A stretch of DNA of 64,000 bases. Origin: an uncultured bacterium. Lineage in GTDB: Bacteria; Macinerneyibacteriota; Macinerneyibacteria; Macinerneyibacteriales; CAYRFE01. Shown in pieces: positions 16,202 through 58,065 of this stretch (position 1 is its first letter; each line of letters begins with the position of its first letter). Both the position numbers and the translations under genes were made by a program. The stretch lies in assembly GCA_964423645.1 (NCBI GenBank), contig CAYRFE010000004.1:27227-91226 (forward strand), in the 5' to 3' direction. The notes below the pieces were generated by a model, which ran no database searches, was not told where the DNA came from, and saw only the letters and a list, made by a program, of their open reading frames with translations.

Positions 16202-16795
16202 TTAAGAAAATGGATTCTCCTCGTCGTCCTGCCACCGGGCAGGATTATTGATGATGTATTCACGAATGCGGTTGAGATCGGATTCATCGCGAATGATGTG
16301 TTCGTAATAATTGCGTTGCCATAATCGCGTATTAAATCGTTTCCATTGTAATTCATTTACACCGCGTACATATAATAACGTCGTCAACGATTTGTATTCA
16401 CCAACAATTTTGCCCAATGTTACCGTAGGGGCAATCCCTTGTGGTTGCCCATGTAATTGTGATAATTCATTTTCATTACCCTCGAGGGCGCCCACAAGAG
16501 GCGCCCCTACGGTGGATTCGATTTCATGAATATACAAAATTCCGTGGAAATGATTCGGCATGATCACGAATTCATCCAATTCAACCGATGGATAATGATC
16601 GGGGATCTCCAACCAACATCGTTCAACCATTTTCCCCGCGTCGTTCAATACCATCTCGCCGTCGATGATATCGCCGAATAGGCATTCCCGATTGTGCGCG
16701 CAAACGGTCACAAAATACACCCCTGCCGAGGAATAATCATACTCTTTCAGGCGGAGAGAATGACGGTGGAATTTATTTTTAAATAGCAAGATCAC
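16202..16795 (-). CDS. REP-associated tyrosine transposase / IS200-IS605 TnpA-like HUH (Y1) transposase
   Basis: HUH motif VIMPNHFHGILYI. Catalytic Tyr region WQRNYYEHIIRDESDLNRIREYIINNPARW. About 197 aa, as in RAYTs. Confidence 0.75.
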   Translation of the reverse strand: MILLFKNKFHRHSLRLKEYDYSSAGVYFVTVCAHNRECLFGDIIDGEMVLNDAGKMVERCWLEIPDHYPSVELDEFVIMPNHFHGILYIHEIESTVGAPLVGALEGNENELSQLHGQPQGIAPTVTLGKIVGEYKSLTTLLYVRGVNELQWKRFNTRLWQRNYYEHIIRDESDLNRIREYIINNPARWQDDEENPFS

Positions 16796-16864
16796 ATCTT
16801 TTCATCCAGAACCATAACAATTTCCCAAAATAAAAGCTTAGATTTATATTACTGAATGTTCTTG

Positions 16865-17176
16865 TTAACCTATCCAATCTTTGGAATAAACCTTTCCATT
16901 TACAAAAGTTATATAAATTATTTTTATCTTTAGACCCAATTTTGTTCCCGCACTTTTATATGTCCAATATTCAAACGTTCCAAAGCTTTTTGTCGTTGTC
17001 TCTCCAACTTCATCAGGTTTTCGACCGATTATTTCAATAACTTTTTCTTTAGTCATTCCTATATCAATCTTATCATAATTTTTTTTCGTGATTTTAAATA
17101 CTGCACCATAAATATTCAATGAATCAATTAACAATATTAATACAACCACGACTCTAATAATGTTTCTTTTTGTCAT
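16865..17176 (-). CDS. Small secreted protein (possibly BamE/SmpA-OmlA-like)
   Basis: Signal peptide, then GMTKEKVIEIIGRKPDE. Very AT-rich codon usage. Confidence 0.4.
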   Translation of the reverse strand: MTKRNIIRVVVVLILLIDSLNIYGAVFKITKKNYDKIDIGMTKEKVIEIIGRKPDEVGETTTKSFGTFEYWTYKSAGTKLGLKIKIIYITFVNGKVYSKDWIG

Positions 17177-17271
17177 AATGCTTCTCCTTGAATAATAAAA
17201 TCACAACCATTATCTGCCACCTATCCTCCCACCAATACAACATTGCCCGACCAACACAAAAAAAAACTTCC

Positions 17272-18033
17272 TCACGGCACCAATCTCTTCAATTCCTCCT
17301 GTAAGGGGAAATTGATAAGCACCGATCGGATCCGTCCCTGGTAGATGAACAAACTTCCCGCCGCCACGGCGGATGCTTTGCCTTCCTGCACGACCTTGGC
17401 GATATCAGCATATTCACCTGCGCCGCCCAGTGCGATCACGGGTATATTCACCGCATCGGTGACCATTCGCACAAGTTCGCAATCATACCCGTCCATCATG
17501 CCGTCGCGGTCGATGCTGTTGAGAAGGATCTCTCCTGCGCCGAGTTCTTCCATCTTTTTCGCATACGTAACAGGATCTTCCCCCGTATTCTTCGTGCCGT
17601 GCCGAGTGAATACTTTGTAACCGCCGAACATTGTTTTTTTCACGTCGATGGATGCGATGATGCTCTGATTACCAAAAATTCGCGCCGCTTCTGAGACAAA
17701 CGCGGGATTTTCGTATGCATAAGAATTCACCGCCACTTTCTCCACCCCCAGTTTGAATATCGTGCGTATATCGTCGATAGAACGGATCGCACCGCTGTAC
17801 GCCATCGGCATAAAACACTCGCTTGTGATCTCTTCGATAAGCGCGAAGGGCGGTTTACGCCCGTCAACAGTAGCAGTAATATCGGCGATTATGAGTTCAT
17901 CGACTTCTTTTTCGTTATAAATTTTGATGGCATTCACCGGATCACCGATATAATTGAGTTTCTTGAATTGTATGGATTTGACCAAACGACCATCCTGTAC
18001 AAGTAAACACGGCATCACACGAGTTTTCAGCAT
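17272..18033 (-). CDS. Imidazole glycerol phosphate synthase cyclase subunit-like, WbuZ-type (HisF family)
   Basis: HisF-like TIM barrel (RVMPCLLVQDGRLVK...DELIIADITAT...GGAGEYAD). Glycan-cluster context rather than a his operon. Confidence 0.85.
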   Translation of the reverse strand: MLKTRVMPCLLVQDGRLVKSIQFKKLNYIGDPVNAIKIYNEKEVDELIIADITATVDGRKPPFALIEEITSECFMPMAYSGAIRSIDDIRTIFKLGVEKVAVNSYAYENPAFVSEAARIFGNQSIIASIDVKKTMFGGYKVFTRHGTKNTGEDPVTYAKKMEELGAGEILLNSIDRDGMMDGYDCELVRMVTDAVNIPVIALGGAGEYADIAKVVQEGKASAVAAGSLFIYQGRIRSVLINFPLQEELKRLVP

Positions 18034-18060
18034 TGAGATCCCTTTAATTCATACGTATGA

Positions 18061-18150
18061 TGTGTGCCCACCCCGTACCCCTCCCGTAATGATCGGGATG
18101 GGTTTTTGTAATTATAGTGTGGGGACGTTGTCCCCACACCCCTGATAAAA
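18061..18150. repeat. REP/MITE-like element copy (partial, inverted orientation)
   Basis: tgtgcccaccccgtacccctcccgtaatgatcgggatggg ... tgtggggacgttgtccccacacccc. Palindromic G/C-run hairpins matching the 29957-30120 element. Confidence 0.6.
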
Positions 18151-18193
18151 TATTCATGACAATACATATTTTCACTATTCCATCTATTCACAA

Positions 18194-18808
18194 TTAAAGC
18201 TCCGCGAAGTTTTTAAGTAACTTCATGCCGAATTTGTGACTTTTTTCAGGATGAAACTGCGCTCCGTAGATATTACCGCGCTCTACTGCCGAAGTAAAGG
18301 CATAGCCGTATTCGGTCTTACATAATGAGTCGCTGTCATCGGTACATACCACATGAAACGAATGCACAAAATAATAACGCGGTTCATCATACATATCGGC
18401 AAACAACTTACTCTCTTTGCATATCTCCACCGTATTCCATCCCATATGCGGAATACGCAGTTTCGCATTTTCTCCGGTGAACGCAAACCGCTTTGTTTCA
18501 CCTTTGATCCACCCTAAGCCGGGAAGTGTACCTTCTTCGCTTCTTTCGGTAAGTAACTGCATCCCAAGGCAAATACCGAGTGTGGGTGTTTTTTCCGCAA
18601 GAACTTTTTCGCGTAATACGGGGATAAGCTTCATCTCATTAAGATTTTTCATGGCATTATCAAATGCTCCTACGCCGGGTAAAATCAACTTATCCGCCGT
18701 CATGATCTCGTCATGCGAAGAAGCAATTTTTACGGCAACTCCCACTTTTTTAAACATGTTTTGAATTGATTTCAAATTACCCATACCGTAATCGACAATC
18801 ACGATCAT
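18194..18808 (-). CDS. Glutamine amidotransferase subunit, WbuY-type (HisH family)
   Basis: Class I GATase: GICLGMQLL catalytic Cys, with HPE at the C-terminus. Confidence 0.85.
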   Translation of the reverse strand: MIVIVDYGMGNLKSIQNMFKKVGVAVKIASSHDEIMTADKLILPGVGAFDNAMKNLNEMKLIPVLREKVLAEKTPTLGICLGMQLLTERSEEGTLPGLGWIKGETKRFAFTGENAKLRIPHMGWNTVEICKESKLFADMYDEPRYYFVHSFHVVCTDDSDSLCKTEYGYAFTSAVERGNIYGAQFHPEKSHKFGMKLLKNFAEL

Positions 18809-19356
18809 TCTGTTTCACCGTGATCCCTATATCGTAATATTTTCGCCGGCACTCCTGCCGCTACTGCAAAAGGCGGAATATCATGCGTCACTACCGCACC
18901 TGCGCCTATAATTGCACCTTCACCGATGGTCACACCCGGCAAAATGATCGTCCCGACACCGATGTCGCTACCGTCGCCGATCACCACCGGTTTGAAGTCC
19001 AACGGATTATGCATGACGGGCTTGGTAATATCTCCCGCGTCTTCATGAACCGAAGTAAGAATTTTCACATGAGGACCGATGCCTACTCCCTTTCCGATAG
19101 TAATAGTTCCGGCGCTATGGAAAAAACATCCTTGCCCGATCCATGTATGATCACCAATATGCATTTCATTTTTGTAATATCCTTTCAGGACAGTACCATG
19201 ACCGATATAAATATTGTTCCCGAGCATAAGCGTCTCAGGGTGAAACACCAGCACTCCCGGCTCGATCACAACATTGTCACCGATTGTTTTAAACTGTTCC
19301 CGAGTAAATTCACCCGTTCCGTGAGATTGAAATTTCTTTATACTTGAAAAATCCAT
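18805..19356 (-). CDS. Sugar N/O-acetyltransferase, left-handed beta-helix (hexapeptide) family
   Basis: Repeated [LIV]G-x4 hexapeptides (IGDGSDIGVGTIILPGVTIGEGAIIGAGAVV). Confidence 0.8.
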   Translation of the reverse strand: MDFSSIKKFQSHGTGEFTREQFKTIGDNVVIEPGVLVFHPETLMLGNNIYIGHGTVLKGYYKNEMHIGDHTWIGQGCFFHSAGTITIGKGVGIGPHVKILTSVHEDAGDITKPVMHNPLDFKPVVIGDGSDIGVGTIILPGVTIGEGAIIGAGAVVTHDIPPFAVAAGVPAKILRYRDHGETE

Positions 19357-19360
19357 ACCA

Positions 19361-20461
19361 TCACCCTATCATTTTCAAAAGCGCCGCTGCAACAAAATGC
19401 GCATCGTCTTCACTGACGTGATTTCCCATCGGCAATGCAAGACCATGTTTATACGCACGGTATGCTCCGGGACAATCGCTCTCTTTATAACCGTATTTTT
19501 CTTTGTAATAGGTCAATGCATTCAGTGCATACGCACCGTAATTGGTCTCGATTCCGTTTTCTTTTAATCGTACAATCAGCGCATCGCGGTCAACCGTATC
19601 CGGCAAAACCACATGATATGTCTGATATACATGTACACGATCATTATATTCACGGGGAAGAACAATCTCTTCGTTTTGTGATAGATCTTGCGTATAGATC
19701 GATGCAATTCGCCGACGATATGCATTAAGCTCATTGGTTGCGTATAACTGCGCACAACCCAATGCCGCTTGAATATCAGTTAACCGATAATTCAATCCTG
19801 CATATACAAAATCAATTTTACCGTCATGAGCGACTATTCCATGATTACGAAGCGATCTCACTTTATCGGCACGATCATCGTCATCAGTGACCACAAACCC
19901 GCCTTCTCCGGTAGTGATCGCCTTACGCGGGTGAAGACTGTAACATCCCATATTCCCGGTCGTGCCGGTTTTTTTACCTCGATATACTGCGCCGAATGCA
20001 CATGCTGAATCATCAATGACAATAAGACCGTGACGTTTGGCGATTGCATGAATAGTATCATTATCTGCCGATTGACCGAATTCATGCACCGGTATAATAG
20101 CTTTGGTAAACGGAGTTATCTGTCCTTCGATGAGATCCTCATGCAGACAACAATCATCGACTCGAATATCAACAAGTCGCACGGTCGCACCGGTTATTTC
20201 AACCACATTTGCAGTCGCAGGAAACGTAAACGCCGGCACGATCACTTCATCGCCGGCACCGATTCCATATGTCATAAGGGCTAAATGTAATGCGGCAGTC
20301 GCAGAAGATACGGCGATCGCATGACGCGTTCCCAAATACGCGGCGGCTTCTTCTTCCAATCGTTTCGCAAACACACCCTGCACCAGATTGCCTGATTCAA
20401 GGACTGTTTTTACATCATCGAACGCTTGTTCCGGTATCCATGGTTTACTGAGTTTTATCAT
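19361..20461 (-). CDS. DegT/DnrJ/EryC1/StrS family PLP-dependent sugar aminotransferase
   Basis: MIKLSKPWIPEQAFDDVKTVLESGNLVQG; CYSLHPRKAITTGEGG region around the Lys. Confidence 0.9.
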   Translation of the reverse strand: MIKLSKPWIPEQAFDDVKTVLESGNLVQGVFAKRLEEEAAAYLGTRHAIAVSSATAALHLALMTYGIGAGDEVIVPAFTFPATANVVEITGATVRLVDIRVDDCCLHEDLIEGQITPFTKAIIPVHEFGQSADNDTIHAIAKRHGLIVIDDSACAFGAVYRGKKTGTTGNMGCYSLHPRKAITTGEGGFVVTDDDDRADKVRSLRNHGIVAHDGKIDFVYAGLNYRLTDIQAALGCAQLYATNELNAYRRRIASIYTQDLSQNEEIVLPREYNDRVHVYQTYHVVLPDTVDRDALIVRLKENGIETNYGAYALNALTYYKEKYGYKESDCPGAYRAYKHGLALPMGNHVSEDDAHFVAAALLKMIG

Positions 20462-22282: not shown

Positions 22283-22888
22283 ATGCACATTATGCAAATT
22301 TTATTCATATCATTTTTCATTCCGCTAAGCGGTAATTTTTTATCCCCGGTCATATTCGATGACCTCGGAGAAAACTATTATTTCTACAACGAAGCCTATG
22401 AAAAAGTGACGATCCGTTATGTGGCCGACAGCACTACCGCACATCCGCTCAACGCCAATGCCGATAAATTGATACGAAGTATTCTCGCCGAATCCGGCAT
22501 TTTTTCCGCCTATATCTCAAGCACCAAAAGAACCTTTCGTGAACAAGCGGAAATCATGAAAGAGGTCAGCGACGCCAATTTACGTGCTTGGTACGGCGAA
22601 GAAGCCGCCCTCGCAGTACGAAAGTACGATGTGCCGACACTTGAGCAGTGGCTGAAAGATAACAAACCGAAAATCAGCCGGCATATCCCGGGATATGCGC
22701 TCGATGTGATTATCGTCGGTGGTGACACACTCGATACGCCCCAAAACAACAAAAATCGCGATGCATATGACGCTGTGATCAGCAAATTGATACCGATCAA
22801 AAGCTTTGGCGTGCGATACTATTTGCGCGAAAATAACGGGGTTGAACATACAGAATTTATATTTCCCGTGACGAATATTGTTGAATGA
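22283..22888 (+). CDS. Hypothetical protein with LAS/M15-type metallopeptidase motif (D-Ala-D-Ala carboxypeptidase-like)
   Basis: ISRHIPGYALDV matches S-x-H-x2-G-x-A-x-D of the VanY/M15 family. There is a later EH. N-terminal hydrophobic segment. RBS GAGAGGAAAAG. Confidence 0.4.
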   Translation: MHIMQILFISFFIPLSGNFLSPVIFDDLGENYYFYNEAYEKVTIRYVADSTTAHPLNANADKLIRSILAESGIFSAYISSTKRTFREQAEIMKEVSDANLRAWYGEEAALAVRKYDVPTLEQWLKDNKPKISRHIPGYALDVIIVGGDTLDTPQNNKNRDAYDAVISKLIPIKSFGVRYYLRENNGVEHTEFIFPVTNIVE

Positions 22889-22925
22889 GCTACCCCGCAG
22901 CGAACTACGGAGTATCAGCATTGTG

Positions 22926-23008
22926 CGCCCACAACCCCTCCCGTGAAAATCGGGAGGGGTTTAATTGTTATATAATGGGGGAGTTCGTCCCCATACCCCT
23001 ATTTAGAA
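22926..23008. repeat. REP/MITE-like element copy (3' half, inverted)
   Basis: cccacaacccctcccgtgaaaatcgggaggggtt...gggggagttcgtccccatacccctatttag. This is the reverse complement of 30005-30090. Confidence 0.65.
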
Positions 23009-23031
23009 AAAAAGGAGGTCATTCGACCTCC
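23006..23031 (-). terminator. Rho-independent terminator after tdh
   Basis: Hairpin ggaggtc-attc-gacctcc (23014-23031) preceded by A8 on the plus strand, which is a T-run on the minus strand. Confidence 0.55.
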
Positions 23032-29481: not shown

Positions 29482-29892
29482 TTAATCGGTTTCCACGGTG
29501 CAAGAATGAGACAGTTTTTCAAAATACTCATCAGGAATTCTGCAGATCTTATTCGAGTGATTCATGAAGGCATGTAACGTATAACCCTTTGCGATCAGCA
29601 CCGCCTCGCGTGTGACAGTATAATCAAATCGCATACGCACTTTTGTCAGTTGTGTTACTTCGGTGGAAATTGTAAGAAGATCATCATATACGGCATGATT
29701 TTTGTATTCGCAATGAGCTTCGAGCACCGGAAGAAAGATCCCGTGCTCTTCAAGTTTGCGATAGGTGAATGCGGTATGACGAAAATATTCGTTTCGCCCG
29801 ATCTCGAATAACCGCAGGTAATTCCCGTTGTAGAGAAATCCCATCGTATCGGTATCACCGTATATTACTCTATAATTCGTTGAACGTATCAT
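29482..29892 (-). CDS. Acyl-CoA thioesterase, YbgC/4HBT family
   Basis: YRVIYGDTDTMGFLYNGNYLRLFE hotdog-fold signature. Confidence 0.75.
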   Translation of the reverse strand: MIRSTNYRVIYGDTDTMGFLYNGNYLRLFEIGRNEYFRHTAFTYRKLEEHGIFLPVLEAHCEYKNHAVYDDLLTISTEVTQLTKVRMRFDYTVTREAVLIAKGYTLHAFMNHSNKICRIPDEYFEKLSHSCTVETD

Positions 29893-29956
29893 ACGCGCGG
29901 ATTATACGCCGATTTGCACTGACGGTCAAATGTAATCGGAAAAATAAGTAAAAATC

Positions 29957-30120
29957 GAGACCTTTGCGAAATTCGAAATTTTTTTATTTTTCTGTTTTTC
30001 CTAAATAGGGGTGTGGGGACGAAGTCACCACCATATAACAAGTTAAGCCCCTCACGATTTTTCACGGGAGGGGTTTGGGGTGGGCACAACTTGTAAAAAT
30101 TGTACTTTCGCAAAGCTCTC
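29957..30120. mobile_element. Full-length MITE/REP-like element with terminal inverted repeats
   Basis: Left TIR gagacctttgcgaaattcgaaa, right TIR tgtactttcgcaaagctctc. Internal palindromes ggggtgtggggacgaagtcaccacc and cccctcacgatttttcacgggagggg, followed by G4-like gggaggggtttggggtggg. Homologous copies at 18061, 22926, 33892, 39294, 53501 and 57958. Confidence 0.65.
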
Positions 30121-30470
30121 TGATCGGGGATGGGCATCGTCGATTGGATTCCCGTTTTCACGAAAACGACACACAATTTAAATAACAGAACATCAAAAAA
30201 TCATCTGCTGAAACAACAGAAGGTGTCATTATAGGGCTTGACCCGATGATCCGGTGGTTATTATGAAATGCACCCGGATTCCCGTTAGAATGTATCCTCG
30301 TGAAAACGGAGACGGGAATGACACATCATATGGTTTTTTTATCAAGACAAAAGTTCGACACGGTTTTTAAAAATTCCTCTCAATCGTGAAGTGATCCACA
30401 TCTCCATACACAGCGAGAAATTGAACCTGTTGAGTTTTAATACTCTCCTTTCAAATTCCGTCTTTATATC

Positions 30471-33790: not shown

Positions 33791-33891
33791 ACAAATCCTC
33801 CTATAGAATCATGATTTTTGAATCCCCCACATCGTAGTATAAACACTTTGATTTTTTTTTCAAGAATAATTTTCGAAACGCAAACATTATA

Positions 33892-34105
33892 GAAACCTTT
33901 GCGAAAATCAAAATATCTTAATGACGATCATTTCCCAAATACGGACGTGAGGATACAGTCATCATTTAGACCTTTGCAAAATTCAAAATTTCCTAAGTAT
34001 CTTTACTTTCTATAAAGGGGGTACACAAATTCAAAATTTGGTAGTTTTGCAAAGGTCTTCAACAGGCGATCAAAATATGCGAGAACTTTGTCCCCGCACC
34101 CCTTT
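33892..34105. repeat. Compound REP/MITE-like element (two left ends, one right end, G-rich tail)
   Basis: aaacctttgcgaaaatcaaaat; tagacctttgcaaaattcaaaattt; inverted aaattcaaaatttggtagttttgcaaaggtc; ctttgtccccgcacccc. Confidence 0.6.
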
Positions 34106-34183
34106 TGTTTCAAATCCCTCGCAATGTAAATGAACAAACCCCATAGCATGTGCTATGGGGCTGTTTTAAAAAAACGTCCTTAA

Positions 34184-39119: not shown

Positions 39120-39293
39120 AAGTATAGTTACATAATTTATAATGTCAAGCCTATGATATTAATTTTTTTAATATTTTTATTTATTTTATTACTTTTATTA
39201 ATACCTGCGGTCTCGTGCGTAATAACTGCCCCGCGGCTCGTCGCGTGTATACCAAAAATTATAACTAGCCTCACTTTTTATAGAGCGTGGTCT

Positions 39294-39356
39294 TCATCAC
39301 CACACCCCCTTTTAGAAAATAAAGATATTTTGGAAATTTTGAATTTTCAAAGGTCT
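39294..39356. repeat. REP/MITE-like element, left-end fragment (inverted)
   Basis: caccacaccccctttagaaaataaagatattttggaaattttgaattttcaaaggtctc is the reverse complement of the left end of the 29957 element. Confidence 0.55.
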
Positions 39357-39439
39357 CCTATACTGCCTTTGAACTTACTTAATCAATTAATCATGCATAT
39401 GGGGAACCATACAAACTTTTTTCCCCAACACCATGTATG

Positions 39440-42465: not shown

Positions 42466-43792
42466 ATTTTTCGGGAATAAAGGTAATAAGACCTTTTAAT
42501 AAATCGATATATTCATTTTGCGGAAGATTATTTTTCAATAATGCAGCGGTTTTTATGGTCATATAATCGCCGTTACTGGATACTAAATACGGATATCGCT
42601 GAAAAATCTGTACCGAATATTTCACGGCAAGATCTTTTTTGGTCTGTTCAAAATATAATGTCGATAAATATAAAAGCGTTTCGGCCGCCAACAGATCCGA
42701 TACAATCGAATCGGTGCTTTCTGCGGTCATATCTTTACCGTGAAGAATTGATTTACATAGATACTCTGTCAGGTTTTCACTCTCTGCGACGACCTCTTTC
42801 ACTTTCAATCGTTCAATATATTTCACTTTATCCAACGTTGCTAAAATAAGATCAACTTCTTTAAAACTTGATGAACGAACCGAGTTGATAATATCCCGAA
42901 AATTTTTAATTGCTTCAGAATATTTTTTTTGCTCCAATGCAATACTGCCGAGGTAAAAGCGAATCTTTGGGAAATAATCCGAGAATATCAATTGATTGAG
43001 CATCTCACGAAGATAGATATTGGCCTGATCAGGTTGCTTTGCGTCACCCGTCGCAACGATATAAATACGCTCGAGTGCCATTTCCGCATAATCATGCCGT
43101 TCCCCCTCGTGCTTCGCCAAAAAATATCCCGAGTAGCGCAATACCGTACGCATATATTCCTGAACGGCTATCATATAATTTTTCAATCGCTCATGTGCAT
43201 ACCCCGAATTGAACTGAGCTTCTGCGGCAACGTTACCGGAAATATCATCCAGCATATAGCGTTCCTCCGCAAATTTTGCATACTTCTGCAAGATCTGGGT
43301 ATATTCACCTGCCGCCTGTGAGATTTTTTCCTGATGAAAATCGATGGTCATCGCATAATATAAATGTGCCAAAGGCGCGATATGAAACGTGTACCCGTAA
43401 CGATTGCTTTCTGTCGACATCATCCCATCCGCATACTGTGTATAGACACGACGGAATAACTCTGCCGCTTCATCGTTCTTTCCGGTCTCATAATATATTT
43501 TTGCCGCAAAAAAAAGAGCATCATCGGCATATCGCGAATCAGGATGTTTTTCTGCCAAGAGCATTAATTTTTGTGCTACATGCTCACCGTACACCACTTC
43601 AATTGTCCCTGATTGCATCATGGTGTTGTATTCGGTCAGATAATACCTCATGAAAACAACAATGTCTGAGCTGTCTATAAGCACGGGCTCATCCTTCGCT
43701 TTTTGAGGAACTGAAGTACTGTGAAATATTTTTCCGCACCCGCTCAACAGCAATACCGCGCCCAAGCACAATATGACAAAGCGTTTCATCAA
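42413..43792 (-). CDS. TPR-like repeat lipoprotein, hypothetical
   Basis: Lipobox LLLSGCG. Helical repeat-rich (AKIYYETGKNDEAAELFRRV). Confidence 0.5.
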   Translation of the reverse strand: MMKRFVILCLGAVLLLSGCGKIFHSTSVPQKAKDEPVLIDSSDIVVFMRYYLTEYNTMMQSGTIEVVYGEHVAQKLMLLAEKHPDSRYADDALFFAAKIYYETGKNDEAAELFRRVYTQYADGMMSTESNRYGYTFHIAPLAHLYYAMTIDFHQEKISQAAGEYTQILQKYAKFAEERYMLDDISGNVAAEAQFNSGYAHERLKNYMIAVQEYMRTVLRYSGYFLAKHEGERHDYAEMALERIYIVATGDAKQPDQANIYLREMLNQLIFSDYFPKIRFYLGSIALEQKKYSEAIKNFRDIINSVRSSSFKEVDLILATLDKVKYIERLKVKEVVAESENLTEYLCKSILHGKDMTAESTDSIVSDLLAAETLLYLSTLYFEQTKKDLAVKYSVQIFQRYPYLVSSNGDYMTIKTAALLKNNLPQNEYIDLLKGLITFIPEKYDAKFVLRKELQSYANN

Positions 43793-45477
43793 TATTCTTC
43801 TCCGATCAATATTTTACGTTTTATTTTTACTCTGCCCTCAAGCTTTTCGTAATTATCATTCACGCCATTGACCATAATTATGATATTTTTCATGGCAGGA
43901 TTTTTCCGATAGATATCAAAATATTTGCGCACAGGCAATTGAAGTTCTGTCCCCTTATAAATCTCAATGAGCTCACCTCGGCGAGGTTCGACATACACGG
44001 TGATAAACTTAAGATTTCCCGATACTTTTTCAAGCAACAGGGCGTCACCGTCTTTAATGCTTGAAAGAGGTATTTGGAAGTGCACACCGCCTTTTTTACC
44101 GGATTGATTGCCGAGCCCGGTACTGAATGCATAACCAAGATCTATCGTCTTATAATTTGTATAAACCTCTGTAGACAAATACAATTTTACAATCTCTTCA
44201 AATGAACTTTTGAACAGCGTTGCTATGGCATCCGATGAAAGAGCCTCCGAAAACACAAAAACATCATCAACGATACCATTGTATGCTTCACTCGGAAACT
44301 TGCGATCAGTAAAAAAAGTACAGAATTTCGGTTCTTTTGAAAATCCTATCTGACTGATTTTCTCCACCTCTGAATTTTTATACACAAAAACGCCCTCACC
44401 GGGTTTAAACACCACAGCAATAAACTGCCAAACACCGTCATCTGCGGTAAGTTTGGTGTTTATCTGCTTTTCACCGTTAAAAACAGCCCATACTGTTCCG
44501 TTGCGAAACACACTCCACTCAAGATTTCCGGTATTTGTACTGCATAAAAATTGTCTCTTTTTGCTGTCACGTTCGGGCTTGACCCACGCCGCGAAAGAAA
44601 ATCCTCGTGAATTTTTATGCTGATTGATCGAAGAATGCAATGTTACCGACTGCGACATCCCATTAAGATACAATCCGCTCATAGTATTTTTTCTGCCGGC
44701 AAAGTATGTCGGTTGCTCGTCCATGAATAAATCTTTCCCTGACGATGAATAGTTTTTCAAAGATTGCTCAAAAGTAAATGCTCCGATCAAAGAAGAAGGA
44801 CGCGGAGGATGATTATACTGATATGTTTCACGAATAAATTCCTCTTTCAGAGGCGTGGCATATATCCGAACTTCATCAATTATCCCGGCAAATCGCTCAC
44901 TTGTTTTACGGTGTCCGCTACCGATCAAAATATGTGTATCTGCAACAGAAAATCCTACAGAGTTTATTGTTTTTTTCTCGGTGTTTTTATATACATCAAC
45001 GGCTGTTGGCGAAAAAGCAACTGCCATAAATTGCCATTCATTCACATCAACAGAAAAACCGGTCTCATACACACCGGTACCCGTCGCAACCATCCATTTG
45101 TCACCGTCGCGAAGCAAGGACCATTCGTTTTTTCCTGTATCGGTCGAAAGAAGGTATTTTTTCCCGTCGGTAATACTCGTCGGATATACCCAAATCATGA
45201 ATGTTACTCCGGATGTATTCACATTTTGATTAATACGAACAGGAGTTGTGATAAATGATCGTGATCCGTCAAGCAGATATGCACGGCCACTCACCCCGTT
45301 TCTGTCGATCGAAGGAGTAAGCTCTGTTCCCACGGAATGATTGTTTAAACCGCCGCTGTCATCGGTATTTCCTGAAAACATATATTTCGCTAAAATCGGG
45401 TACTCAATATCCGTCACCTGTGCATAAAGCGAAACAGCAGTAAAAATTATAACCAGCACTATTCCGAATATTTTCAT
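43789..45477 (-). CDS. Secreted protein with two concanavalin A-like/LamG domains
   Basis: Signal peptide. Two repeats of the LamG_3-like pattern (LDGSRSFITTP...FMIWVYP...EWQFMAVAF / LNGMSQSVTL...FAAWVKP...VWQFIAVVF). Confidence 0.6.
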   Translation of the reverse strand: MKIFGIVLVIIFTAVSLYAQVTDIEYPILAKYMFSGNTDDSGGLNNHSVGTELTPSIDRNGVSGRAYLLDGSRSFITTPVRINQNVNTSGVTFMIWVYPTSITDGKKYLLSTDTGKNEWSLLRDGDKWMVATGTGVYETGFSVDVNEWQFMAVAFSPTAVDVYKNTEKKTINSVGFSVADTHILIGSGHRKTSERFAGIIDEVRIYATPLKEEFIRETYQYNHPPRPSSLIGAFTFEQSLKNYSSSGKDLFMDEQPTYFAGRKNTMSGLYLNGMSQSVTLHSSINQHKNSRGFSFAAWVKPERDSKKRQFLCSTNTGNLEWSVFRNGTVWAVFNGEKQINTKLTADDGVWQFIAVVFKPGEGVFVYKNSEVEKISQIGFSKEPKFCTFFTDRKFPSEAYNGIVDDVFVFSEALSSDAIATLFKSSFEEIVKLYLSTEVYTNYKTIDLGYAFSTGLGNQSGKKGGVHFQIPLSSIKDGDALLLEKVSGNLKFITVYVEPRRGELIEIYKGTELQLPVRKYFDIYRKNPAMKNIIIMVNGVNDNYEKLEGRVKIKRKILIGEEY

Positions 45478-45491: not shown

Positions 45492-46784
45492 TTACAAACC
45501 CAATCGTGCGTAAATGGCATCTATATTGCGCACATGATATCGATAATCAAACGCATCGTTGATCTCTTTTTCGTTGAAATATTTTCTCACTTCTTCATCA
45601 TCCATCAGAATATCCTTGAATGCTCTTCCCGTCTCCCAAACTTTCATAGCATTACGTTGAACCAGTGCATATGCGTCTTCGCGGGAAACATTTTTCTGTG
45701 TCAGACATAAAAGGAAATATTGAGAAAAAACCAGACCTTGCATTTTTTCAAGATTTTTCATCATATTATCGGGATAAACAACCATGTTACCGATAACATA
45801 CGTCATACGATCGAGAATATAATCCAGCGCAATCGTTGAATCCGGCAAAATGATACGTTCAACGGACGAGTGGGAGATATCGCGTTCATGCCACAGTGCG
45901 ACATTTTCCATTGCGGCGATCGCATTTGAACGAATAAGGCGAGCAAGTCCGCAAATACGTTCACCAAGAATCGGATTACGTTTATGCGGCATCGCCGATG
46001 AACCCTTTTGTCCTTTTTTAAACGGTTCTTCAACTTCAAGAACTTCAGTCTTTTGCAATGCACGAAGTTCTGTCGCCATTTTTTCAAGTGTACACGCAGT
46101 TACCGCACATGTGTTCATGAACACCGCATAGCGATCACGTTGCACTATCTGATTGGAAACGCGCGCGTAGTCAAGTCCGAGACGACCGCATACATCCTCT
46201 TCAATATCGGGATCGATATTTGCAAATGATCCGACTGCACCGGAGATCTTCCCGACAGCAATGTCCTTACGTGCGGCTTTCATTCGTTCAAGATTACGCT
46301 TCATTTCTTCATACCATACGGCAAGTTTGAGTCCGAAGGTAATCGGTTCTGCATGAATTCCGTGGGAGCGACCTATCATAAGCGTATATTTATGTTCAAT
46401 CATGCGTTTTTTTAATGCATCAATGAGAAGCGATATATCGTCAATCAGTATATCTGATGCATCACGAAGAAGCAACGCATTGGCGGTGTCAAGCATATCA
46501 GAGGATGTCATCCCCCAATGGATAAAACGACTGTCCGGGCCTACATATTCGGCAACATTGGTTAAGAATGCAATAACGTCGTGATTCGTGGTATTCTCGA
46601 TCTCTTGTACGCGTTTTGGATCAAATGCGGCTTTTTCTCGTATAACACGAAGACTTTCATCGGGTATAACCCCTTTTTTATTCCAAGCCTCACACACGGC
46701 TATTTCTACCGCCAGCCACATTGAAAGTTTATGTTCTTCTGTCCACACTTGCCCCATTTTCTTCCGTGTATAGCGTTCTATCAT
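45492..46784 (-). CDS. purB: Adenylosuccinate lyase
   Basis: Fumarase/ASL signature GSSAMPHKRNP. N-terminal MIERYTRKKMGQVWTEEHK. Confidence 0.9.
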   Translation of the reverse strand: MIERYTRKKMGQVWTEEHKLSMWLAVEIAVCEAWNKKGVIPDESLRVIREKAAFDPKRVQEIENTTNHDVIAFLTNVAEYVGPDSRFIHWGMTSSDMLDTANALLLRDASDILIDDISLLIDALKKRMIEHKYTLMIGRSHGIHAEPITFGLKLAVWYEEMKRNLERMKAARKDIAVGKISGAVGSFANIDPDIEEDVCGRLGLDYARVSNQIVQRDRYAVFMNTCAVTACTLEKMATELRALQKTEVLEVEEPFKKGQKGSSAMPHKRNPILGERICGLARLIRSNAIAAMENVALWHERDISHSSVERIILPDSTIALDYILDRMTYVIGNMVVYPDNMMKNLEKMQGLVFSQYFLLCLTQKNVSREDAYALVQRNAMKVWETGRAFKDILMDDEEVRKYFNEKEINDAFDYRYHVRNIDAIYARLGL

Positions 46785-53429: not shown

Positions 53430-53500
53430 TTTGAGGTGTACTATACGAAAAAATCGCAAATTGTCAAGTAAAATGTCGAATATGCGCGAATTTATTTATC

Positions 53501-53590
53501 GAGATCTTTGCGAAATTCAAAATTACTAAATATTCTTTATTCTCTAAAAAAGAGGAGTCGGGACACAAATATTGTAGTATTTTTTTGAGA
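53501..53590. repeat. REP/MITE-like element copy (left portion)
   Basis: gagatctttgcgaaattcaaaatt...taaaaaagaggagtcgggacacaaatattgtag, homologous to 29957-30045. Confidence 0.6.
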
Positions 53591-53694
53591 TACTCCGTAG
53601 CTTGCTGTGGGTCAGTCCTTTAACCATAAAATAAAAAATTCCTCTTCTTCATTTTTTTTCTTGACATATAAGAATATGCTTATATACTTAACAC

Positions 53695-53981: not shown

Positions 53982-54215
53982 ATGGCAACTATTACTATCT
54001 ATTCGACCCCGACCTGTACTTACTGCAAAATGGCGAAAAGCTATCTTTCGCAAAAGAATGTTTCTTACTCTGATTTCGACGTATCAAAAGATCAGGCAAA
54101 AGCTGAAGAAATGGTACGTAAATCCGGTCAAATGGGCGTGCCCGTCATTGACATCGACGGCAAGATCATCGTCGGCTTCAACAAACCTGAAATCGACAAA
54201 CTTCTCGGGTTGTAA
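53982..54215 (+). CDS. Glutaredoxin-like protein (NrdH/YruB type)
   Basis: ITIYSTPTCTYCKMAK CxxC active site. 77 aa thioredoxin fold. Starts 3 nt after the arsR stop. Confidence 0.75.
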   Translation: MATITIYSTPTCTYCKMAKSYLSQKNVSYSDFDVSKDQAKAEEMVRKSGQMGVPVIDIDGKIIVGFNKPEIDKLLGL

Positions 54216-54224
54216 TCATTGATA

Positions 54225-54259
54225 AGTCAGAAGTATTGTATGCTTCTGACTTTTTTTTA
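54225..54259 (+). terminator. Rho-independent terminator after the grx-like gene
   Basis: agtcagaag-tattgtatg-cttctgact followed by T8. Confidence 0.6.
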
Positions 54260-54290
54260 TCATTTTAAAGCGTATCATGCTAAAATAAAT

Positions 54291-54827: not shown

Positions 54828-54830
54828 GGC

Positions 54831-55703
54831 TCATTCTTCTTCACTATAATCATCGTCGTCACTTGGTGCATCATCCGGTGTGAACCAACCGGGTGAATAA
54901 TTATACTTACCCGTTGAAAAGCTTATGCTCAGCGTATTGTCATCATACCCTTTTCGCGCAAATTCATACGAAAGACTCAGCATGTATCCTTTTATCGATA
55001 CGCTTTTACCGACAACCCACCGAGAGTCCGCGGTATACCCCACTCGCAAGGAAAGAAAATCTTTCAAATTGTATTCTACGCCACCGCTTACCTGTGAATC
55101 ATCGTCATCATATAAGTGTGCATTCACGGTCAAACCTATTTTTTCCATCGGCTTATATCCTGCGCCGATTATCATGCTCCATGGTTCAGGCGCTCCATTA
55201 ATTTCGGGTGCCATGACATTTTTCCATGTATAACCGATTGCAAGATTATCACGCGCCATCATGAGAAAACCGACATCGATACCTTCATCAACGTCACCGG
55301 CGCTCTCCTGCCAACGAAAACTAGTTCCTATGCTCAGCATTTCTCCGAAAGGTAATTGATCGAATGAACGTGAGAACGTGATAGTTTTATTATTTATATC
55401 CAGATATCTGTTTTGAATATGTGAATATGATACTCCGGCGAATGTAACATTCCACGAATAACTATGCAAATCTTTTCGATCCTGAGAAACAAAATAATTA
55501 AAATTAAAAAAACTGTTTCCCGCATAACACTTGACGATACCGGGGTATGCAGGATTGATCATGACGCTTTGATTGACCGACCACGGGTAGGCGACCGACG
55601 AACCGCCCAAGGATTCGTTGAACGCTGACCCTGATAGTGAAAGTGCGTGAATAGAAAAAGAAAAAAAGACCACAAGCACCGCGCCGACAACGTTACATTT
55701 CAT
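54831..55703 (-). CDS. Outer-membrane beta-barrel-like protein with acidic C-terminal tail, hypothetical
   Basis: Signal peptide. Alternating beta-strand pattern rich in Y/F/W. C-terminal DDAPSDDDDYSEEE. Stop is 4 nt from the LigT-like start. Confidence 0.4.
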   Translation of the reverse strand: MKCNVVGAVLVVFFSFSIHALSLSGSAFNESLGGSSVAYPWSVNQSVMINPAYPGIVKCYAGNSFFNFNYFVSQDRKDLHSYSWNVTFAGVSYSHIQNRYLDINNKTITFSRSFDQLPFGEMLSIGTSFRWQESAGDVDEGIDVGFLMMARDNLAIGYTWKNVMAPEINGAPEPWSMIIGAGYKPMEKIGLTVNAHLYDDDDSQVSGGVEYNLKDFLSLRVGYTADSRWVVGKSVSIKGYMLSLSYEFARKGYDDNTLSISFSTGKYNYSPGWFTPDDAPSDDDDYSEEE

Positions 55704-55942
55704 AATTCAACCTCCGAAAAAAACATACAACTCATTTATTACGCAAAATCCTTCATAAGTATAGCATACGTGAAGGTTTTATCAAGACAAGGTTTTTTCA
55801 AAAACGCCCTCCCGTATCTTTACCGTCTGATACTCCTTCTATCGTAACAAAGTACAGAACCTTTTGTATCTTCTACATTATCGTTTTTCACTCGTTGGTT
55901 CGCACTCGAATCACACGTAATCACAAATGTTTCGTTGTGCAA

Positions 55943-56680
55943 TTACTCATACGAGACAGAATCTAAAAATAAACCGTGAGCCGGAGCGGTCTGACCGGCA
56001 AATTGACGGCTTTTTGCCTCAAACATTGCATCGATACAGTCGGCATATCGCTCACCCCAACCGATCTCGATAAGGGTCCCCGCCATAATTCGAACCATGT
56101 TGTATAAAAACCCGTCGCCTTCAAAAATAATTTCCACACAATGTTCATTTTCGACAATTTCTGCAGTATAAATAGTGCGCATTGCTTTGTTTTTTGCCTT
56201 ATCAGACGTAAATGATGTAAAATCATGCTTCCCTAAAAATGAAAGGGCTGCGGTGCGCATATCTTCAATATTCAGTTTTTCTGCCACATGCCATGCATAA
56301 TGTCGTTCAAATACATTCGGATACTGCCCGTTATCAATGCGGTAGATATATCGTTTCCGTTTCGCATGAAGACGAGCGTGAAAATTATCCGCCATTTCTT
56401 CGGCATTAAATATCACAATATCATTGGGCAGATACGTATATGCAAACTCAAGTATCGCCTGGCATGTCACCTCGGATCTTGTCTTAAAATGTGCAACTTG
56501 CGCATATGCGTGAGCACCGGCATCAGTTCTTCCCGAACCGTGGATCTCGATCTTTTCACCCGTGCATCGCGTCAGCACCGCTTCGATTTTACCTTGTATC
56601 GTCTTATCACTGTCGCCTAAACGTTGCCACCCGCGATATTTCGTACCATCATATGAAACAGTGATCTTGATGGTTCTCAT
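55943..56680 (-). CDS. truA: tRNA pseudouridine(38-40) synthase
   Basis: MRTIKITVSYDGTKYRGWQRL and GSGRTDAGAHAYAQV catalytic Asp motif. Start at ATG 56680. Confidence 0.85.
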   Translation of the reverse strand: MRTIKITVSYDGTKYRGWQRLGDSDKTIQGKIEAVLTRCTGEKIEIHGSGRTDAGAHAYAQVAHFKTRSEVTCQAILEFAYTYLPNDIVIFNAEEMADNFHARLHAKRKRYIYRIDNGQYPNVFERHYAWHVAEKLNIEDMRTAALSFLGKHDFTSFTSDKAKNKAMRTIYTAEIVENEHCVEIIFEGDGFLYNMVRIMAGTLIEIGWGERYADCIDAMFEAKSRQFAGQTAPAHGLFLDSVSYE

Positions 56681-56681
56681 A

Positions 56682-57674
56682 TTATTTGGTCCACCGGTGT
56701 GCTTCGATTTGATATTCGTAGTAATATTTTCGCTCCTGTTCTCCGGGGCGTTTTGAACCGCCACCGATTTTGATCATTTTCCCATATATCGTCACTTTCG
56801 TCTTTTCGGGTATCTCCTCTTTGCTGTACACCACAAATTGTCCAATGTCTGTATCAACATACTGACTGAACGGATATGCCTCATTCATGGCGATCATATG
56901 TTGATTGATAAGCCCGGTGATCTCTCCCTGAAACATAACATATCGATTTTCAAGCGATGAAAATGATCCCGTGATCAATCGATATCGACGCAATATGCTG
57001 TGTGAGGGGATATAATGCATCACTTTCGGTGCCTCGTCAAGATGCCATTCAATTTCATCCTCATGCTTCTTGACTCCACGCACACGACCTCTCATTTCAT
57101 CTTTCTTTTCAGAATAACCATACATGGTCTGTATGGTCAAAAGCAAATCACCGTTCTTTTGTACGGTTCCGATTATAGAATAATCGCCGCCTTTCATATC
57201 TGAAGCATCTATTCTCGACGCATCATCGTTCACGAAAGAATGATGCCCTTCTATACGCGTACCTGTCTGATAGAGAGTAATATCAAAAGAGCCCTGCGCC
57301 GGTTCGACGCTCCATTGCCCGGTGTAATCGGGAAGAAATATCCCTTTGCATGCAACAGAACGTTTCCCGCGAAGCATTTTTCCATTGAACATCTGCTTGT
57401 TTTTCACTCCCTCGACCTGCCCCCATACGGAATCAGTTTCATCGGTAATCGTAAAAGAAAAAAAATCCTCTTTGATAATTCCTGAAAGTGACAGATCGGT
57501 GCGCCAAGAGTCATCAGACACCACGCCGTATAACTTGCCGTCAGTTTCGGTAATTTTAGCAGAAACAACCTCATCCCCGGTATCAAGTTCCAATTGATAC
57601 ACCGTCATAGCATAACCTCCCGATGTCAAAAACAAAACACACCATATGCATATCACTACGATTCGATGTTTCAT
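56682..57674 (-). CDS. Secreted/lipoprotein, hypothetical
   Basis: Start at ATG 57674 (MKHRIVVICIWCVLFLTSGGYAM). No recognisable domain. Confidence 0.45.
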   Translation of the reverse strand: MKHRIVVICIWCVLFLTSGGYAMTVYQLELDTGDEVVSAKITETDGKLYGVVSDDSWRTDLSLSGIIKEDFFSFTITDETDSVWGQVEGVKNKQMFNGKMLRGKRSVACKGIFLPDYTGQWSVEPAQGSFDITLYQTGTRIEGHHSFVNDDASRIDASDMKGGDYSIIGTVQKNGDLLLTIQTMYGYSEKKDEMRGRVRGVKKHEDEIEWHLDEAPKVMHYIPSHSILRRYRLITGSFSSLENRYVMFQGEITGLINQHMIAMNEAYPFSQYVDTDIGQFVVYSKEEIPEKTKVTIYGKMIKIGGGSKRPGEQERKYYYEYQIEAHRWTK

Positions 57675-57957
57675 ATTTACCCCCAAATTCTTATCTACGT
57701 CATTCTTCATGAAGTATACGTGTATTTGCATGCTTTTGCAAGTGTGCCTTTGTTGTATTGAACAATTTATCCGCAATGTTGTGTAAAAGAATCATTTTGC
57801 CACCCCATCATCACGGACCAAACCGACAACGAATATGTGATGACTTCCGTTTTTTTATGAAAACAGATTTTTTATCAATCCCGCAACGTTTTTCGCATCG
57901 CACAACTGCTGCATACGTCGAGTGTGAATTATATATCGCATTGTTTTATGACGTATC

Positions 57958-58065
57958 GAGCCCTTTGCGAAATTCGAATTTTTTCATTTTCTATTTTTCA
58001 TAAAGAGGAGTGTGGGGATGAAATCCACACTATATAACAATTGTTTGCTATCCCCTCTCCCCGCA
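57958..58065. repeat. REP/MITE-like element copy
   Basis: gagccctttgcgaaattcgaattttttcattttctatttttcataaagaggagtgtggggatgaaatccacactatataacaattg...cccctctccccgcac. Confidence 0.6.

What the first reader, a model, noticed from the sequence alone, without database searches (positions are those of the whole stretch)
16202..58065. Dispersed REP/MITE-like palindromic repeat family (at least 7 copies) together with a RAYT-type HUH transposase gene
There is one full element with 20-nt terminal inverted repeats (GAGACCTTTGCGAAATTCGAAA ... TTTCGCAAAGCTCTC) at 29957-30120. Partial or compound copies sit at 18061, 22926, 33892, 39294, 53501 and 57958, all intergenic. Each carries G-run palindromes (GGGGTGTGGGGAC..., CCCCTCCCG..CGGGAGGGG) and a G4-like run GGGAGGGGTTTGGGGTGGG. 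The window also encodes an IS200-like/REP-associated tyrosine transposase (16202-16795: HUH motif PNHFHGIL, NYYEH Tyr). That enzyme class is established to mobilise REP/REPIN elements. Seven copies in 64 kb is a high density. The elements sit at operon boundaries, at terminator positions (23006) and in promoter regions (53501 before arsR).
Basis: partly seen in the sequence, partly recalled or inferred. Interest (0 to 1): 0.7.

Follow-up and report, generated by a model that had tools for sequence, protein, structure and literature searches.

The report
Decayed MITE-like repeats plus RAYT gene
An uncultured bacterium carries a real family of small hairpin-rich mobile repeats between its genes, and separately a REP-type tyrosine transposase gene whose own GTAG-tagged palindromes sit inside its reading frame; both are known kinds of element, and a link between them is not shown.

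Summary
Eight clear copies, plus one remnant, of a modular repeat lie in seven intergenic gaps between 18 and 58 kb. ORF 16202-16795(-) is a Y1 HUH protein.

(1) The repeat is an old, decayed non-coding element of about 100-210 bp. It has 14-15 bp terminal inverted repeats (GAGACCTTTGCRAAA) and two internal G-rich hairpins. It is mobile DNA. The hisH-hisF junction carries a copy here and in one sister strain, but is empty in two relatives. Four short-read contigs end inside copies.

(2) The ORF is a TnpA_REP/RAYT of subclass 2.4 (motifs NHFH, WQ, YIINNP). As published for that subclass, its cognate REPs (GTAG + GGGC…GCCC hairpin) sit in frame inside the gene, at 16425-16450 and 16486-16510. 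They encode a loop predicted to be disordered. Three sister strains carry different in-gene REPs.

No canonical REP lies outside the gene in the 64 kb, and the gene's flanks are unique sequence. The only links are a REP pair nested in one repeat copy just outside the window, and a REP replacing hairpin B in a sister strain. What moves the dispersed family is unknown. I favour a DDE transposase encoded elsewhere. Genome-wide copy number could not be measured.

The parts
16202..16795 (-). RAYT / TnpA_REP gene, 197 aa, TnpAY1 subclass 2.4 (Bertels group 4). HUH = N81-H82-F83-H84, W159-Q160, Y motif Y180-IINNP.
   Evidence: Pfam and NCBIfam; about 8000 homologues, many named RayT by JGI; motif table of PMC6006769; alignment A5 invariants; AlphaFold model and PDB fold search.
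16425..16450 (+). In-gene canonical REP: GTAG + GGGCAATCCCTTGTGGTTGCCC. On the coding strand it reads …GCCCCTAC and encodes GQPQGIAPT.
   Evidence: Inverted repeats I9/I10; GTAG-hairpin scan; DNA alignment of three orthologues.
16486..16510 (-). In-gene canonical REP in the opposite orientation: GTAG + GGGCGCCTCTTGTGGGCGCCC, encoding VGAPLVGA. With the previous part it forms an inverted REP pair (REPIN-like) between the HUH and Tyr motifs.
   Evidence: The segment (residues 95-119) has pLDDT below 50 and is a loop in the model.
18034..18193 (-). Copy c18: a 160-nt insertion between hisH-like and hisF-like genes. Core hairpins B and C lie at 18056-18151, with degenerate end modules and one G4 motif at 18067-18085.
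   Evidence: The site is filled here and in L111, and empty in L112 and L113.
22894..23012 (-). Copy c22: hairpins B and C (22914-23008) plus the variant right-end module E (22894-22916). Hairpin C read on the + strand is terminator-like, 45 nt after the stop of gene 22283..22888.
29953..30125 (+). Copy c29: the best-preserved full-length element, in the order end A, AT-rich tract, hairpin B, hairpin C, GGGGTGGGCACA, end A'. TIRs at 29957-29971 and 30106-30120; G4 motif at 30066-30084.
   Evidence: (DNA fold -29.7 kcal/mol, z -4.5).
33887..33944 (+). Copy c33a: end A plus a degenerate hairpin B.
33963..34058 (+). Copy c33b: a short form (97 nt) with perfect 14-nt TIRs (AGACCTTTGCAAAA at 33968-33981 and 34045-34058). 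Hairpins B and C are deleted.
   Evidence: (z -5.5).
34077..34125 (-). Possible third, inverted remnant (c33c): an A-like stretch plus a hairpin B remnant (AGGGGTGCGGGGAC).
   Evidence: E 0.03. This part is weak.
39273..39362 (-). Copy c39: end A plus hairpin B with a compensated stem (GTGTGGT…ACCACGC). No hairpin C or end A'.
53497..53611 (+). Copy c53: a short form, with end A, a fused B/C remnant, a degenerate end A' and module E (53589-53611). It lies between the divergent tRNA-Gly and arsR promoters.
57953..58125 (+). Copy c57: full length, with end A, hairpin B (bulged), a decayed hairpin C and a degenerate end A' (CTTTATAAAGACCTG).

Best explanation

(1) The dispersed family is an old, decaying MITE-like element. 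The full form is about 170 bp: a 15-20 bp end (TATCGAGACCTTTGCGAAATTC), an AT-rich tract, hairpin B (GTGTGGGGAC-N4-GTCCCCACAC), hairpin C (CCCCTCCCG-N7-CGGGAGGGG), GGGGTGGGCACA, and then the inverted end. Short forms arise by deletion between the two G-rich direct repeats. It inserted as DNA into intergenic sites. This is shown by the filled and empty hisH-hisF junction. I infer that it was moved in trans by a transposase that recognises the inverted ends, most likely a DDE enzyme encoded outside the sequence available. It is no longer spreading fast, because copies differ by 8-16%.

(2) ORF 16202-16795 is a subclass-2.4 TnpA_REP/RAYT. By analogy with the studied members, it binds and cuts GTAG-footed hairpins in single-stranded DNA. 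Its cognate REPs (GTAG + GGGC…GCCC) are rare here. They lie in frame inside its own gene, where they encode a disordered loop, and they turn over between sister strains. REPs occasionally land in the hairpin part of the MITE-like copies. That nesting is the only observed connection between the two systems.

Side effects on the host are inferred. Hairpin C can serve as a terminator (c22). The c18 insertion separated two translationally coupled genes and supplies a ribosome-binding site. Three element ends sit just upstream of strong promoters.
For: Family and architecture:
- establish the family and its modules.
- Another full-length copy lies 1.3 kb left of the window. It has the same right end and a nested inverted REP pair (L109:15650-15858).
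- The hairpins fold well as DNA, with z from -3.3 to -5.8.

Mobility:
- hisH-hisF carries a 160-nt copy here and a 132-nt variant in L111 (HisF 98% identical). In L112 (96%) and L113 (90%) the two genes abut or overlap.
- A copy with a compensated change in hairpin C is present in a GuaB-86% relative (L099).
- No copy was found in 21 kb of a GuaB-75% relative.
- Contigs L002, L108, L110 and L116 end inside copies.

RAYT class:
- The motifs NHFH/WQ/YIINNP and the 197-aa length match only subclass 2.4 in Table 1 of PMC6006769.
- Both hallmarks are seen here.
- The REP-encoded residues 95-119 have pLDDT below 50, while the core is confident.
- The fold search returns only Y1 transposases, with 4ER8 at the lowest rmsd, 4.3 Å.

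Separation of the two systems:
- The RAYT flanks hold no repeated 14- or 16-mer.
- No GC-rich GTAG hairpin lies outside the gene in the window.
- No transposase domain was found among the window proteins whose Pfam hits were seen. That covers most but not all of the window: ORFs 43789-45477 and 45492-46784 and several unassigned ORFs were not scanned, because one search failed.
Against: - No autonomous element or DDE transposase carrying these ends was found, so the favoured mobiliser is inferred by exclusion and by analogy with TIR-type MITEs.
- A target-site duplication is not established. There is one possible 4-bp AATG duplication in L111 and TA next to 5 of 9 ends, which may simply be part of the element.
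- Only about 80 kb of this genome and about 70 kb from relatives could be inspected. The metagenome scan returned only chance matches.
- Hairpin B starts with (A/T)NAG-GGG and often ends with CTAT, which resembles a 'double-foot' REP. A GTAG-REP occupies the position of hairpin B in L111. A functional link to the RAYT therefore cannot be excluded.
Confidence: 0.55

Rival explanations
1. The whole dispersed family is a REP/REPIN population of this RAYT. The inverted ends and hairpins B and C are its substrates in single-stranded DNA, and the RAYT copies them around the genome.
For: The RAYT belongs to a subclass that is associated with REPs. Hairpin B begins ATAG/TAAG/TCAG + GGG, and the last two foot bases, AG, are the critical ones in some systems (PMC8266576). 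A GTAG-REP replaces hairpin B at the same site in L111, and a REP pair sits between hairpins B and C in the copy left of the window. No other transposase was seen in the proteins examined.
Against: The ends are plain inverted repeats, not palindromes with a GT[AG]G foot, and hairpin C has no foot. No copy flanks the gene, and the flanking 16-mers are unique. L112 has the RAYT with three in-gene REPs but an empty hisH-hisF site and no family copy in 9.4 kb. A generic 'foot + hairpin' scan does not exceed shuffled expectation.
Confidence: 0.2
2. Hairpins B and C are an independent REP-like doublet, served by this RAYT or another one. The A…A' inverted repeat is a separate MITE that often captured the doublet or landed around it.
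For: Copies c18, c22 and L099 keep hairpins B and C well while their ends are barely recognisable. The hairpin stems show compensated differences between copies (c39, c57, L099). REP-type palindromes stack in tandem in the copy left of the window.
Against: Global alignment shows degenerate end modules at the expected distance in c18, c57 and L099. The order and total length (160-172 nt) are also conserved, which fits one ancestral element. Only one fully compensatory pair was counted among four sequences.
Confidence: 0.15
3. The repeats are not mobile. They are conserved regulatory or structural motifs (promoter-upstream elements, terminators) kept by selection.
For: The A end lies 22-30 nt upstream of the -35 box of strong sigma-70-like promoters in c29, c33a and c53. 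In L111 it supplies a -35 box 17 nt from TATAAT. Hairpin C of c22 is terminator-like.
Against: There is presence/absence polymorphism inside an operon between close relatives. Orientation relative to transcription is inconsistent. The tRNA-Gly promoter is intact without the element in L099/L101. No Rfam family matches even at E<=1.
Confidence: 0.07

Closest known systems
TnpA_REP / RAYT of TnpAY1 subclass 2.4 (Bertels group 4), as classified by Quentin et al. 2018 (PMC6006769)
   Same: [quoted passage not shown]
   Different: No REPs were found in the flanking intergenic DNA or within ±1 kb outside the ORF. Cognate REPs are very sparse: none is extragenic in 64 kb. The host is an uncultured relative of Candidatus Mcinerneyibacteriales, a lineage not mentioned in the parts of that paper read here.
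E. coli REP/BIME with TnpA_REP (REPtron; PDB 4ER8)
   Same: The Y1 HUH fold, a catalytic Tyr aligned to Y115, and GTAG-footed palindromes as the presumed substrate.
   Different: Only about 18% identity and a different subclass (2.2). E. coli has hundreds of extragenic REPs and REPs that flank the gene. Here the REPs are inside the gene and are rare.
TIR-type bacterial MITEs such as Neisseria Correia elements (comparison from my own knowledge, not tested here)
   Same: A size of about 100-200 bp, no coding capacity, terminal inverted repeats, a whole element that folds into a long hairpin, intergenic location, possible outward promoter or terminator effects, and full-length and internally deleted forms.
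   Different: No sequence similarity was found (plasmid blastn returned only two marginal hits at E 0.5; Rfam returned nothing). A target duplication is not established, and no parent IS is known.
Modular repeats such as pneumococcal BOX elements or E. coli BIMEs (comparison from my own knowledge)
   Same: A mosaic of short modules in variable combinations, with stable hairpins, at operon boundaries.
   Different: Here the combinations are best explained by decay and deletion of one TIR-bounded ancestor, plus nested REPs.
IS200/IS605 insertion sequences
   Same: The same protein fold, and the best Foldseek hits.
   Different: The Y motif is Y---NP, not Y---Q. There is no tnpB, no subterminal hairpins flank the gene, and the NCBIfam IS200 model scores 21.5 against a cut-off of 55.

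Membership tests
TnpA_REP / RAYT (TnpAY1 class 2, subclass 2.4) | HUH motif NH[IFV]H | tested here: met
   PNHFHGI. H82 and H84 are invariant in 34 homologues.
TnpA_REP / RAYT (TnpAY1 class 2, subclass 2.4) | Y motif Y---NP, specifically YIxNNP, plus the WQ motif | tested here: met
   Y180-IINNP and W159-Q160. Y180 aligns to Y115 of 4ER8.
TnpA_REP / RAYT (TnpAY1 class 2, subclass 2.4) | Y1 HUH transposase fold and profile match | tested here: met
   Pfam PF01797 scores 29.8 against 23. Foldseek returns only Y1 transposases, with 4ER8 at rmsd 4.3 Å. NCBIfam REP_Tyr_transpos has E 2e-18, but its 66 bits fall below the cut-off of 80.
TnpA_REP / RAYT (TnpAY1 class 2, subclass 2.4) | [quoted passage not shown] | tested here: met
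   Two inverted GTAG-REPs lie at 16425-16450 and 16486-16510. The orthologues in L111 and L112 carry different REPs at the same place, while the gene ends stay near-identical.
TnpA_REP / RAYT (TnpAY1 class 2, subclass 2.4) | Gene flanked by its REPs (REPtron; canonical REPs within ±1000 nt) | tested here: not met
   The flanks 16097-16201 and 16796-16864 hold no hairpin repeats, and all their 16-mers are unique in the window. The nearest dispersed copy is 1.27 kb away.
TnpA_REP / RAYT (TnpAY1 class 2, subclass 2.4) | Nuclease or strand-transfer activity on the cognate REP | not testable with these tools
   Needs biochemistry.
REP / REPIN population | A 20-50 nt palindrome preceded by a conserved GT[AG]G tetranucleotide | tested here: not met
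   This is met only by the in-gene REPs and by the nested pair in L109. The dispersed hairpins do not meet it. Hairpin B has ATAG/TCAG/TAAG/AGAG, hairpin C has no foot, and the A ends are not palindromes.
REP / REPIN population | High copy number in extragenic space genome-wide | tested here: inconclusive
   Canonical REPs: none extragenic in 64 kb and two in the next 6.5 kb. The whole genome could not be scanned.
MITE (TIR-type non-autonomous element) | Terminal inverted repeats, small size, no ORF | tested here: met
   c29 is 14/15 and c33b 14/14, and the L109 copy has the same right end.
MITE (TIR-type non-autonomous element) | Multiple dispersed copies and insertion polymorphism | tested here: met
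   Eight or nine copies in 64 kb, with others in L109, L111 and L099. The hisH-hisF site is filled in some genomes and empty in others.
MITE (TIR-type non-autonomous element) | Target-site duplication | tested here: inconclusive
   One possible AATG duplication in L111. The window copy has diverged at that point. c29 and c33b show none.
MITE (TIR-type non-autonomous element) | A parent insertion sequence with the same ends | not testable with these tools
   None was found among the proteins examined in the sequence held.
IS200/IS605 | TnpA with a Y---Q motif, subterminal hairpins at both ends, multiple near-identical copies | tested here: not met
   The Y motif is Y---NP. The NCBIfam IS200 model scores 21.5 against 55. 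No flanking hairpins were found.

The most novel reading that the evidence does not exclude
The subclass-2.4 RAYT may be what seeds and remodels the hairpin part of the dispersed elements. GTAG-REPs swap in for hairpin B, and hairpin B itself may be a degenerate ATAG-footed REP. If so, this lineage shows a Y1 transposase building composite TIR-plus-REP elements. Separately, the strain-to-strain turnover of REPs inside the RAYT's own ORF (three sister strains, three different sets, with gene ends about 90% identical) would give a natural time series of REP insertion by a group-4 RAYT, an enzyme class whose activity has not been shown.
Probability: 0.15. Interest if true: 0.6.

Novelty: new member of a known kind. 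Interest (0 to 1): 0.3.

Why it matters
This is a clean example, in a barely studied candidate lineage (Mcinerneyibacteriales-like), of two well-known classes of small bacterial repeats living together.

It also warns against assuming that any hairpin repeat found near a RAYT gene is that enzyme's substrate. The enzyme's recognisable REPs here are hidden inside its own reading frame.

The sister-strain comparisons may be useful for studying how group-4 RAYTs and their REPs turn over. They include the filled and empty hisH-hisF site, and the different in-gene REP sets within otherwise near-identical genes.

For annotation, the repeats explain assembly breaks, and they account for a spurious 76-aa gene call over copy c57.

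Tried and rejected
- The metagenome-contig scan with GAGNYCTTTGCGAAATTCRAA gave 9 hits. None shares anything beyond the pattern.
- Because of these two results, genome-wide copy number and a search for a parent IS were not possible.
- Rfam returned only the tRNA, both at gathering thresholds and at E<=1.
- Blastn of the full copy against plasmids gave only two marginal hits at E 0.5.
- A generic scan for GT[AG]G or ATAG followed by a hairpin was no better than shuffled sequence: 14 against 16, and 11 against 13. Only the GC-rich GTAG-GGGC hairpins are meaningful.
- Covariation in hairpins B and C showed only one compensatory pair among four sequences, which is too little to argue for an RNA structure.
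- An outward promoter from the element end is convincing only in L111. In c29, c33a and c53 the promoter lies in the flank.
- Look-ups with the thioesterase and ArsR proteins, meant to find further filled or empty sites, returned only the same strain.
- One Pfam batch failed on a bad coordinate and was not repeated.

Full report
**What is there**

A repeat search of the whole window, a blastn of the seven intergenic gaps against the window and pattern searches with shuffled controls all show one dispersed family. The end-module pattern has 6 matches against 0.21 expected; five are repeat copies and the sixth, at 9237, is a 3-mismatch hit outside the family. The hairpin-B pattern has 5 against 0.09, and the hairpin-C pattern 2 against 0.00.

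Reading each site and aligning the copies gives a common order:
- end A: TATCGAGACCTTTGCGAAATTCRAAAT
- an AT-rich tract of about 25 nt
- hairpin B: AGGGG-TGTGGGGAC-N4-GTCCCCACA
- TATATAACAA
- hairpin C: CCCCTCCCG-N7-CGGGAGGGG
- TTTGGGGTGGGCACA
- a short spacer
- the inverted end A'

Copy c29 (29953-30125) is the best-preserved full copy, with 14/15 complementary 15-nt ends. Copy c33b (33963-34058) is a 97-nt short form with perfect 14-nt ends. Copy c53 is a similar short form. In both short forms, B and C appear to have been lost by deletion between the two G-rich direct repeats. Copy c57 is full length with a decayed right half. Copies c18 and c22 keep B and C well but have degenerate ends. 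Copies c39 and c33a keep A and B only. Copies c22 and c53 share a variant right end (module E).

Profile searches give eight clear copies and one weak remnant at seven sites. None lies in a credible gene. The hairpins and the whole elements fold far better than shuffled sequence as single-stranded DNA. Only two canonical G4 motifs exist in the 64 kb, both in copies, so the G4 run is not a general feature of the family.

**Where the window comes from**

Exact-protein look-ups place the window at about 93.7-157.7 kb of a 160-kb metagenomic contig. GuaB is 74% identical to a MAG named Candidatus Mcinerneyibacteriales and 66% identical to Ca. Mcinerneyibacterium aminivorans.

The 6.5 kb to the left of the window holds one more full-length copy (L109:15650-15858). 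The 10 kb to the right holds none.

A relative with 86% GuaB identity has a B-C copy with a compensated change in hairpin C (L099). Twenty-one kb from a 75% relative has none. Four short-read contigs end inside copies, as expected for a multi-copy repeat.

**Mobility**

The hisH-like and hisF-like genes are separated by 160 nt here, and that gap contains c18. In a strain with 98% identical HisF (L111) the same site holds a 132-nt variant. In strains with 96% and 90% identical HisF (L112, L113) the stop codon of hisH abuts or overlaps the ATG of hisF.

Alignment shows that the insert is a whole element with decayed ends. Its right end supplies AAAGGGA upstream of the hisF ATG.

This is direct evidence of insertion, or of precise loss. 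A 4-bp AATG duplication is visible in L111 only, so the target duplication remains open.

**The gene**

ORF 16202-16795(-) matches Pfam Y1_Tnp above threshold. It matches the NCBIfam REP-associated tyrosine transposase model with E 2e-18, although below that model's curated cut-off. It has about 8000 homologues in many phyla, and JGI names many of them RayT.

Its motifs are NHFH, WQ and YIINNP, and it is 197 aa long. These match one row only of the classification of Quentin et al. 2018, subclass 2.4, which equals Bertels group 4. H82, H84 and Y180 are invariant in an alignment of 34 homologues. Y180 aligns to the catalytic Y115 of E. coli TnpA_REP.

An AlphaFold model has a confident core, and a PDB fold search returns only Y1 transposases. 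TnpA_REP 4ER8 has the lowest rmsd.

**REPs inside the gene**

[quoted passage not shown] They also report that its REPs have a GT[AG]G foot and three G-C pairs at the stem base.

Exactly this is present here. GTAG-GGGCAATCCCTTGTGGTTGCCC lies at 16425-16450(+), and GTAG-GGGCGCCTCTTGTGGGCGCCC at 16510-16486(-). Together they encode VGAPLVGA…GQPQGIAPT, which is the only low-confidence loop of the model (residues 95-119).

The orthologues at the same locus in L111 and L112 are near-identical to the window gene in the first ~260 nt and the last ~110 nt. In the middle they carry different REPs: GTAGGGGTTCAAGATTTTGAACCCCTAC in L111, and three REPs in L112. In L111 the in-gene REP type also occurs 19 nt after a neighbouring gene.

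**Are the two systems linked?**

Evidence against a link:
- The RAYT's flanking intergenic DNA contains no repeat copy and no repeated 14- or 16-mer.
- No GC-rich GTAG hairpin occurs outside the gene in the window.
- The ends of the dispersed element are ordinary inverted repeats rather than footed palindromes.
- L112 has the RAYT but no family copy in 9.4 kb and an empty hisH-hisF site.
- Bertels et al. 2017 found that only group 2 and group 3 RAYTs are flanked by highly abundant 16-mers.

Evidence for a link:
- The copy left of the window has an inverted pair of GTAG-REPs nested between hairpins B and C.
- In L111 a GTAG-REP occupies the place of hairpin B.
- Hairpin B starts with NNAG-GGG and often ends with CTAT.

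I read this as REPs landing in hairpin-rich DNA, not as proof that the RAYT moves the whole family.

No transposase domain was found among the window proteins whose Pfam hits I saw. That covers most but not all of the window, because one batch failed. The mobiliser of the TIR-bounded family was therefore not identified in what I examined. A DDE enzyme encoded elsewhere is the most economical guess.

**Host effects (inferred)**

Hairpin C of c22 scores as a terminator-like site 45 nt after a gene end. It lies next to a separate canonical bidirectional terminator.

The A end lies 22-30 nt upstream of the -35 box of strong sigma-70-like promoters in three cases. It supplies a -35 box in L111. However, the tRNA-Gly promoter is intact without the element in a relative.

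**Limits**

Both large collection scans failed to reach the source genome. Copy number, the existence of a parent IS, and the total number of RAYT paralogues are therefore unknown.

**Verdict**

The family is a new member of known kinds: a TIR-type MITE, plus a subclass-2.4 REP/RAYT pair whose in-gene REPs are already described in the literature. The proposed enzyme-substrate link for the dispersed family is unproven and, on present evidence, unlikely.

Noticed in passing
window 12581-12682 and 13401-13502: A 102-nt direct repeat, 97% identical, brackets the methyltransferase gene 12681..13460(-). One copy contains the gene's first ~20 codons and its upstream region, and the other is a truncated duplicate. 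This looks like a cassette insertion or a local duplication.
   Followed up: partly
window 16796-17271; L111:7882-8402; L112:4865-6025: The gene between hisF and the RAYT differs in three sister strains: a 103-aa DUF3862 protein, a 162-aa protein and a 376-aa protein. The flanking genes are 96-98% identical, so this is a replacement hot spot directly upstream of the RAYT.
   Followed up: partly
window about 22.9-41.0 kb compared with L113:3600-4950: In the HisF-90% relative, the Mur ligase gene lies next to the 193-aa and glycosyltransferase genes. The window has about 18 kb between them, bounded on one side by copy c22 and containing c29, c33 and c39.
   Followed up: no
window 22894-22916(-) and 53589-53611(+): A shared 23-nt module, GATACTCCGTAGYTYGCTGYGGG, forms a CCGTAG/CTGYGG stem with UUCG- or CUUG-like loops and G-T pairs. 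This would be more RNA-like than DNA-like.
   Followed up: no
window 29901-29929, 33836-33863, 53440-53467; L111:2955-2985: Strong sigma-70-like promoters sit 22-30 nt beyond the A end of three copies. In L111 the A-like copy itself supplies the -35 box TTGCAA, 17 nt from TATAAT. This could reflect a target preference or selection.
   Followed up: partly
window 29890-29906: The -10 box of the thioesterase promoter ends only about 9 nt before the annotated ATG. The mRNA may be leaderless, or the start codon may be mis-called.
   Followed up: no
window 58018-58248: Public gene calls place a 76-aa ORF over copy c57 (L106 5498..5728). It is probably spurious, because it starts inside hairpin B.
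   Followed up: no
window 18040-18060 compared with L111:7095-7110: At the right end of the hisH-hisF insert, the hexamer ATGAAT in the window is ATTCAT in L111. This is a 6-nt inversion within otherwise aligned sequence.
   Followed up: no
alignment A5 (RAYT homologues from many phyla): V96-G97 and GQPQG(I/V)APT are nearly invariant across phyla. In the window these residues are the translated GTAGGGGC and GCCCCTAC feet. The palindrome feet inside the ORF therefore seem conserved family-wide, while the stems between them vary.
   Followed up: partly
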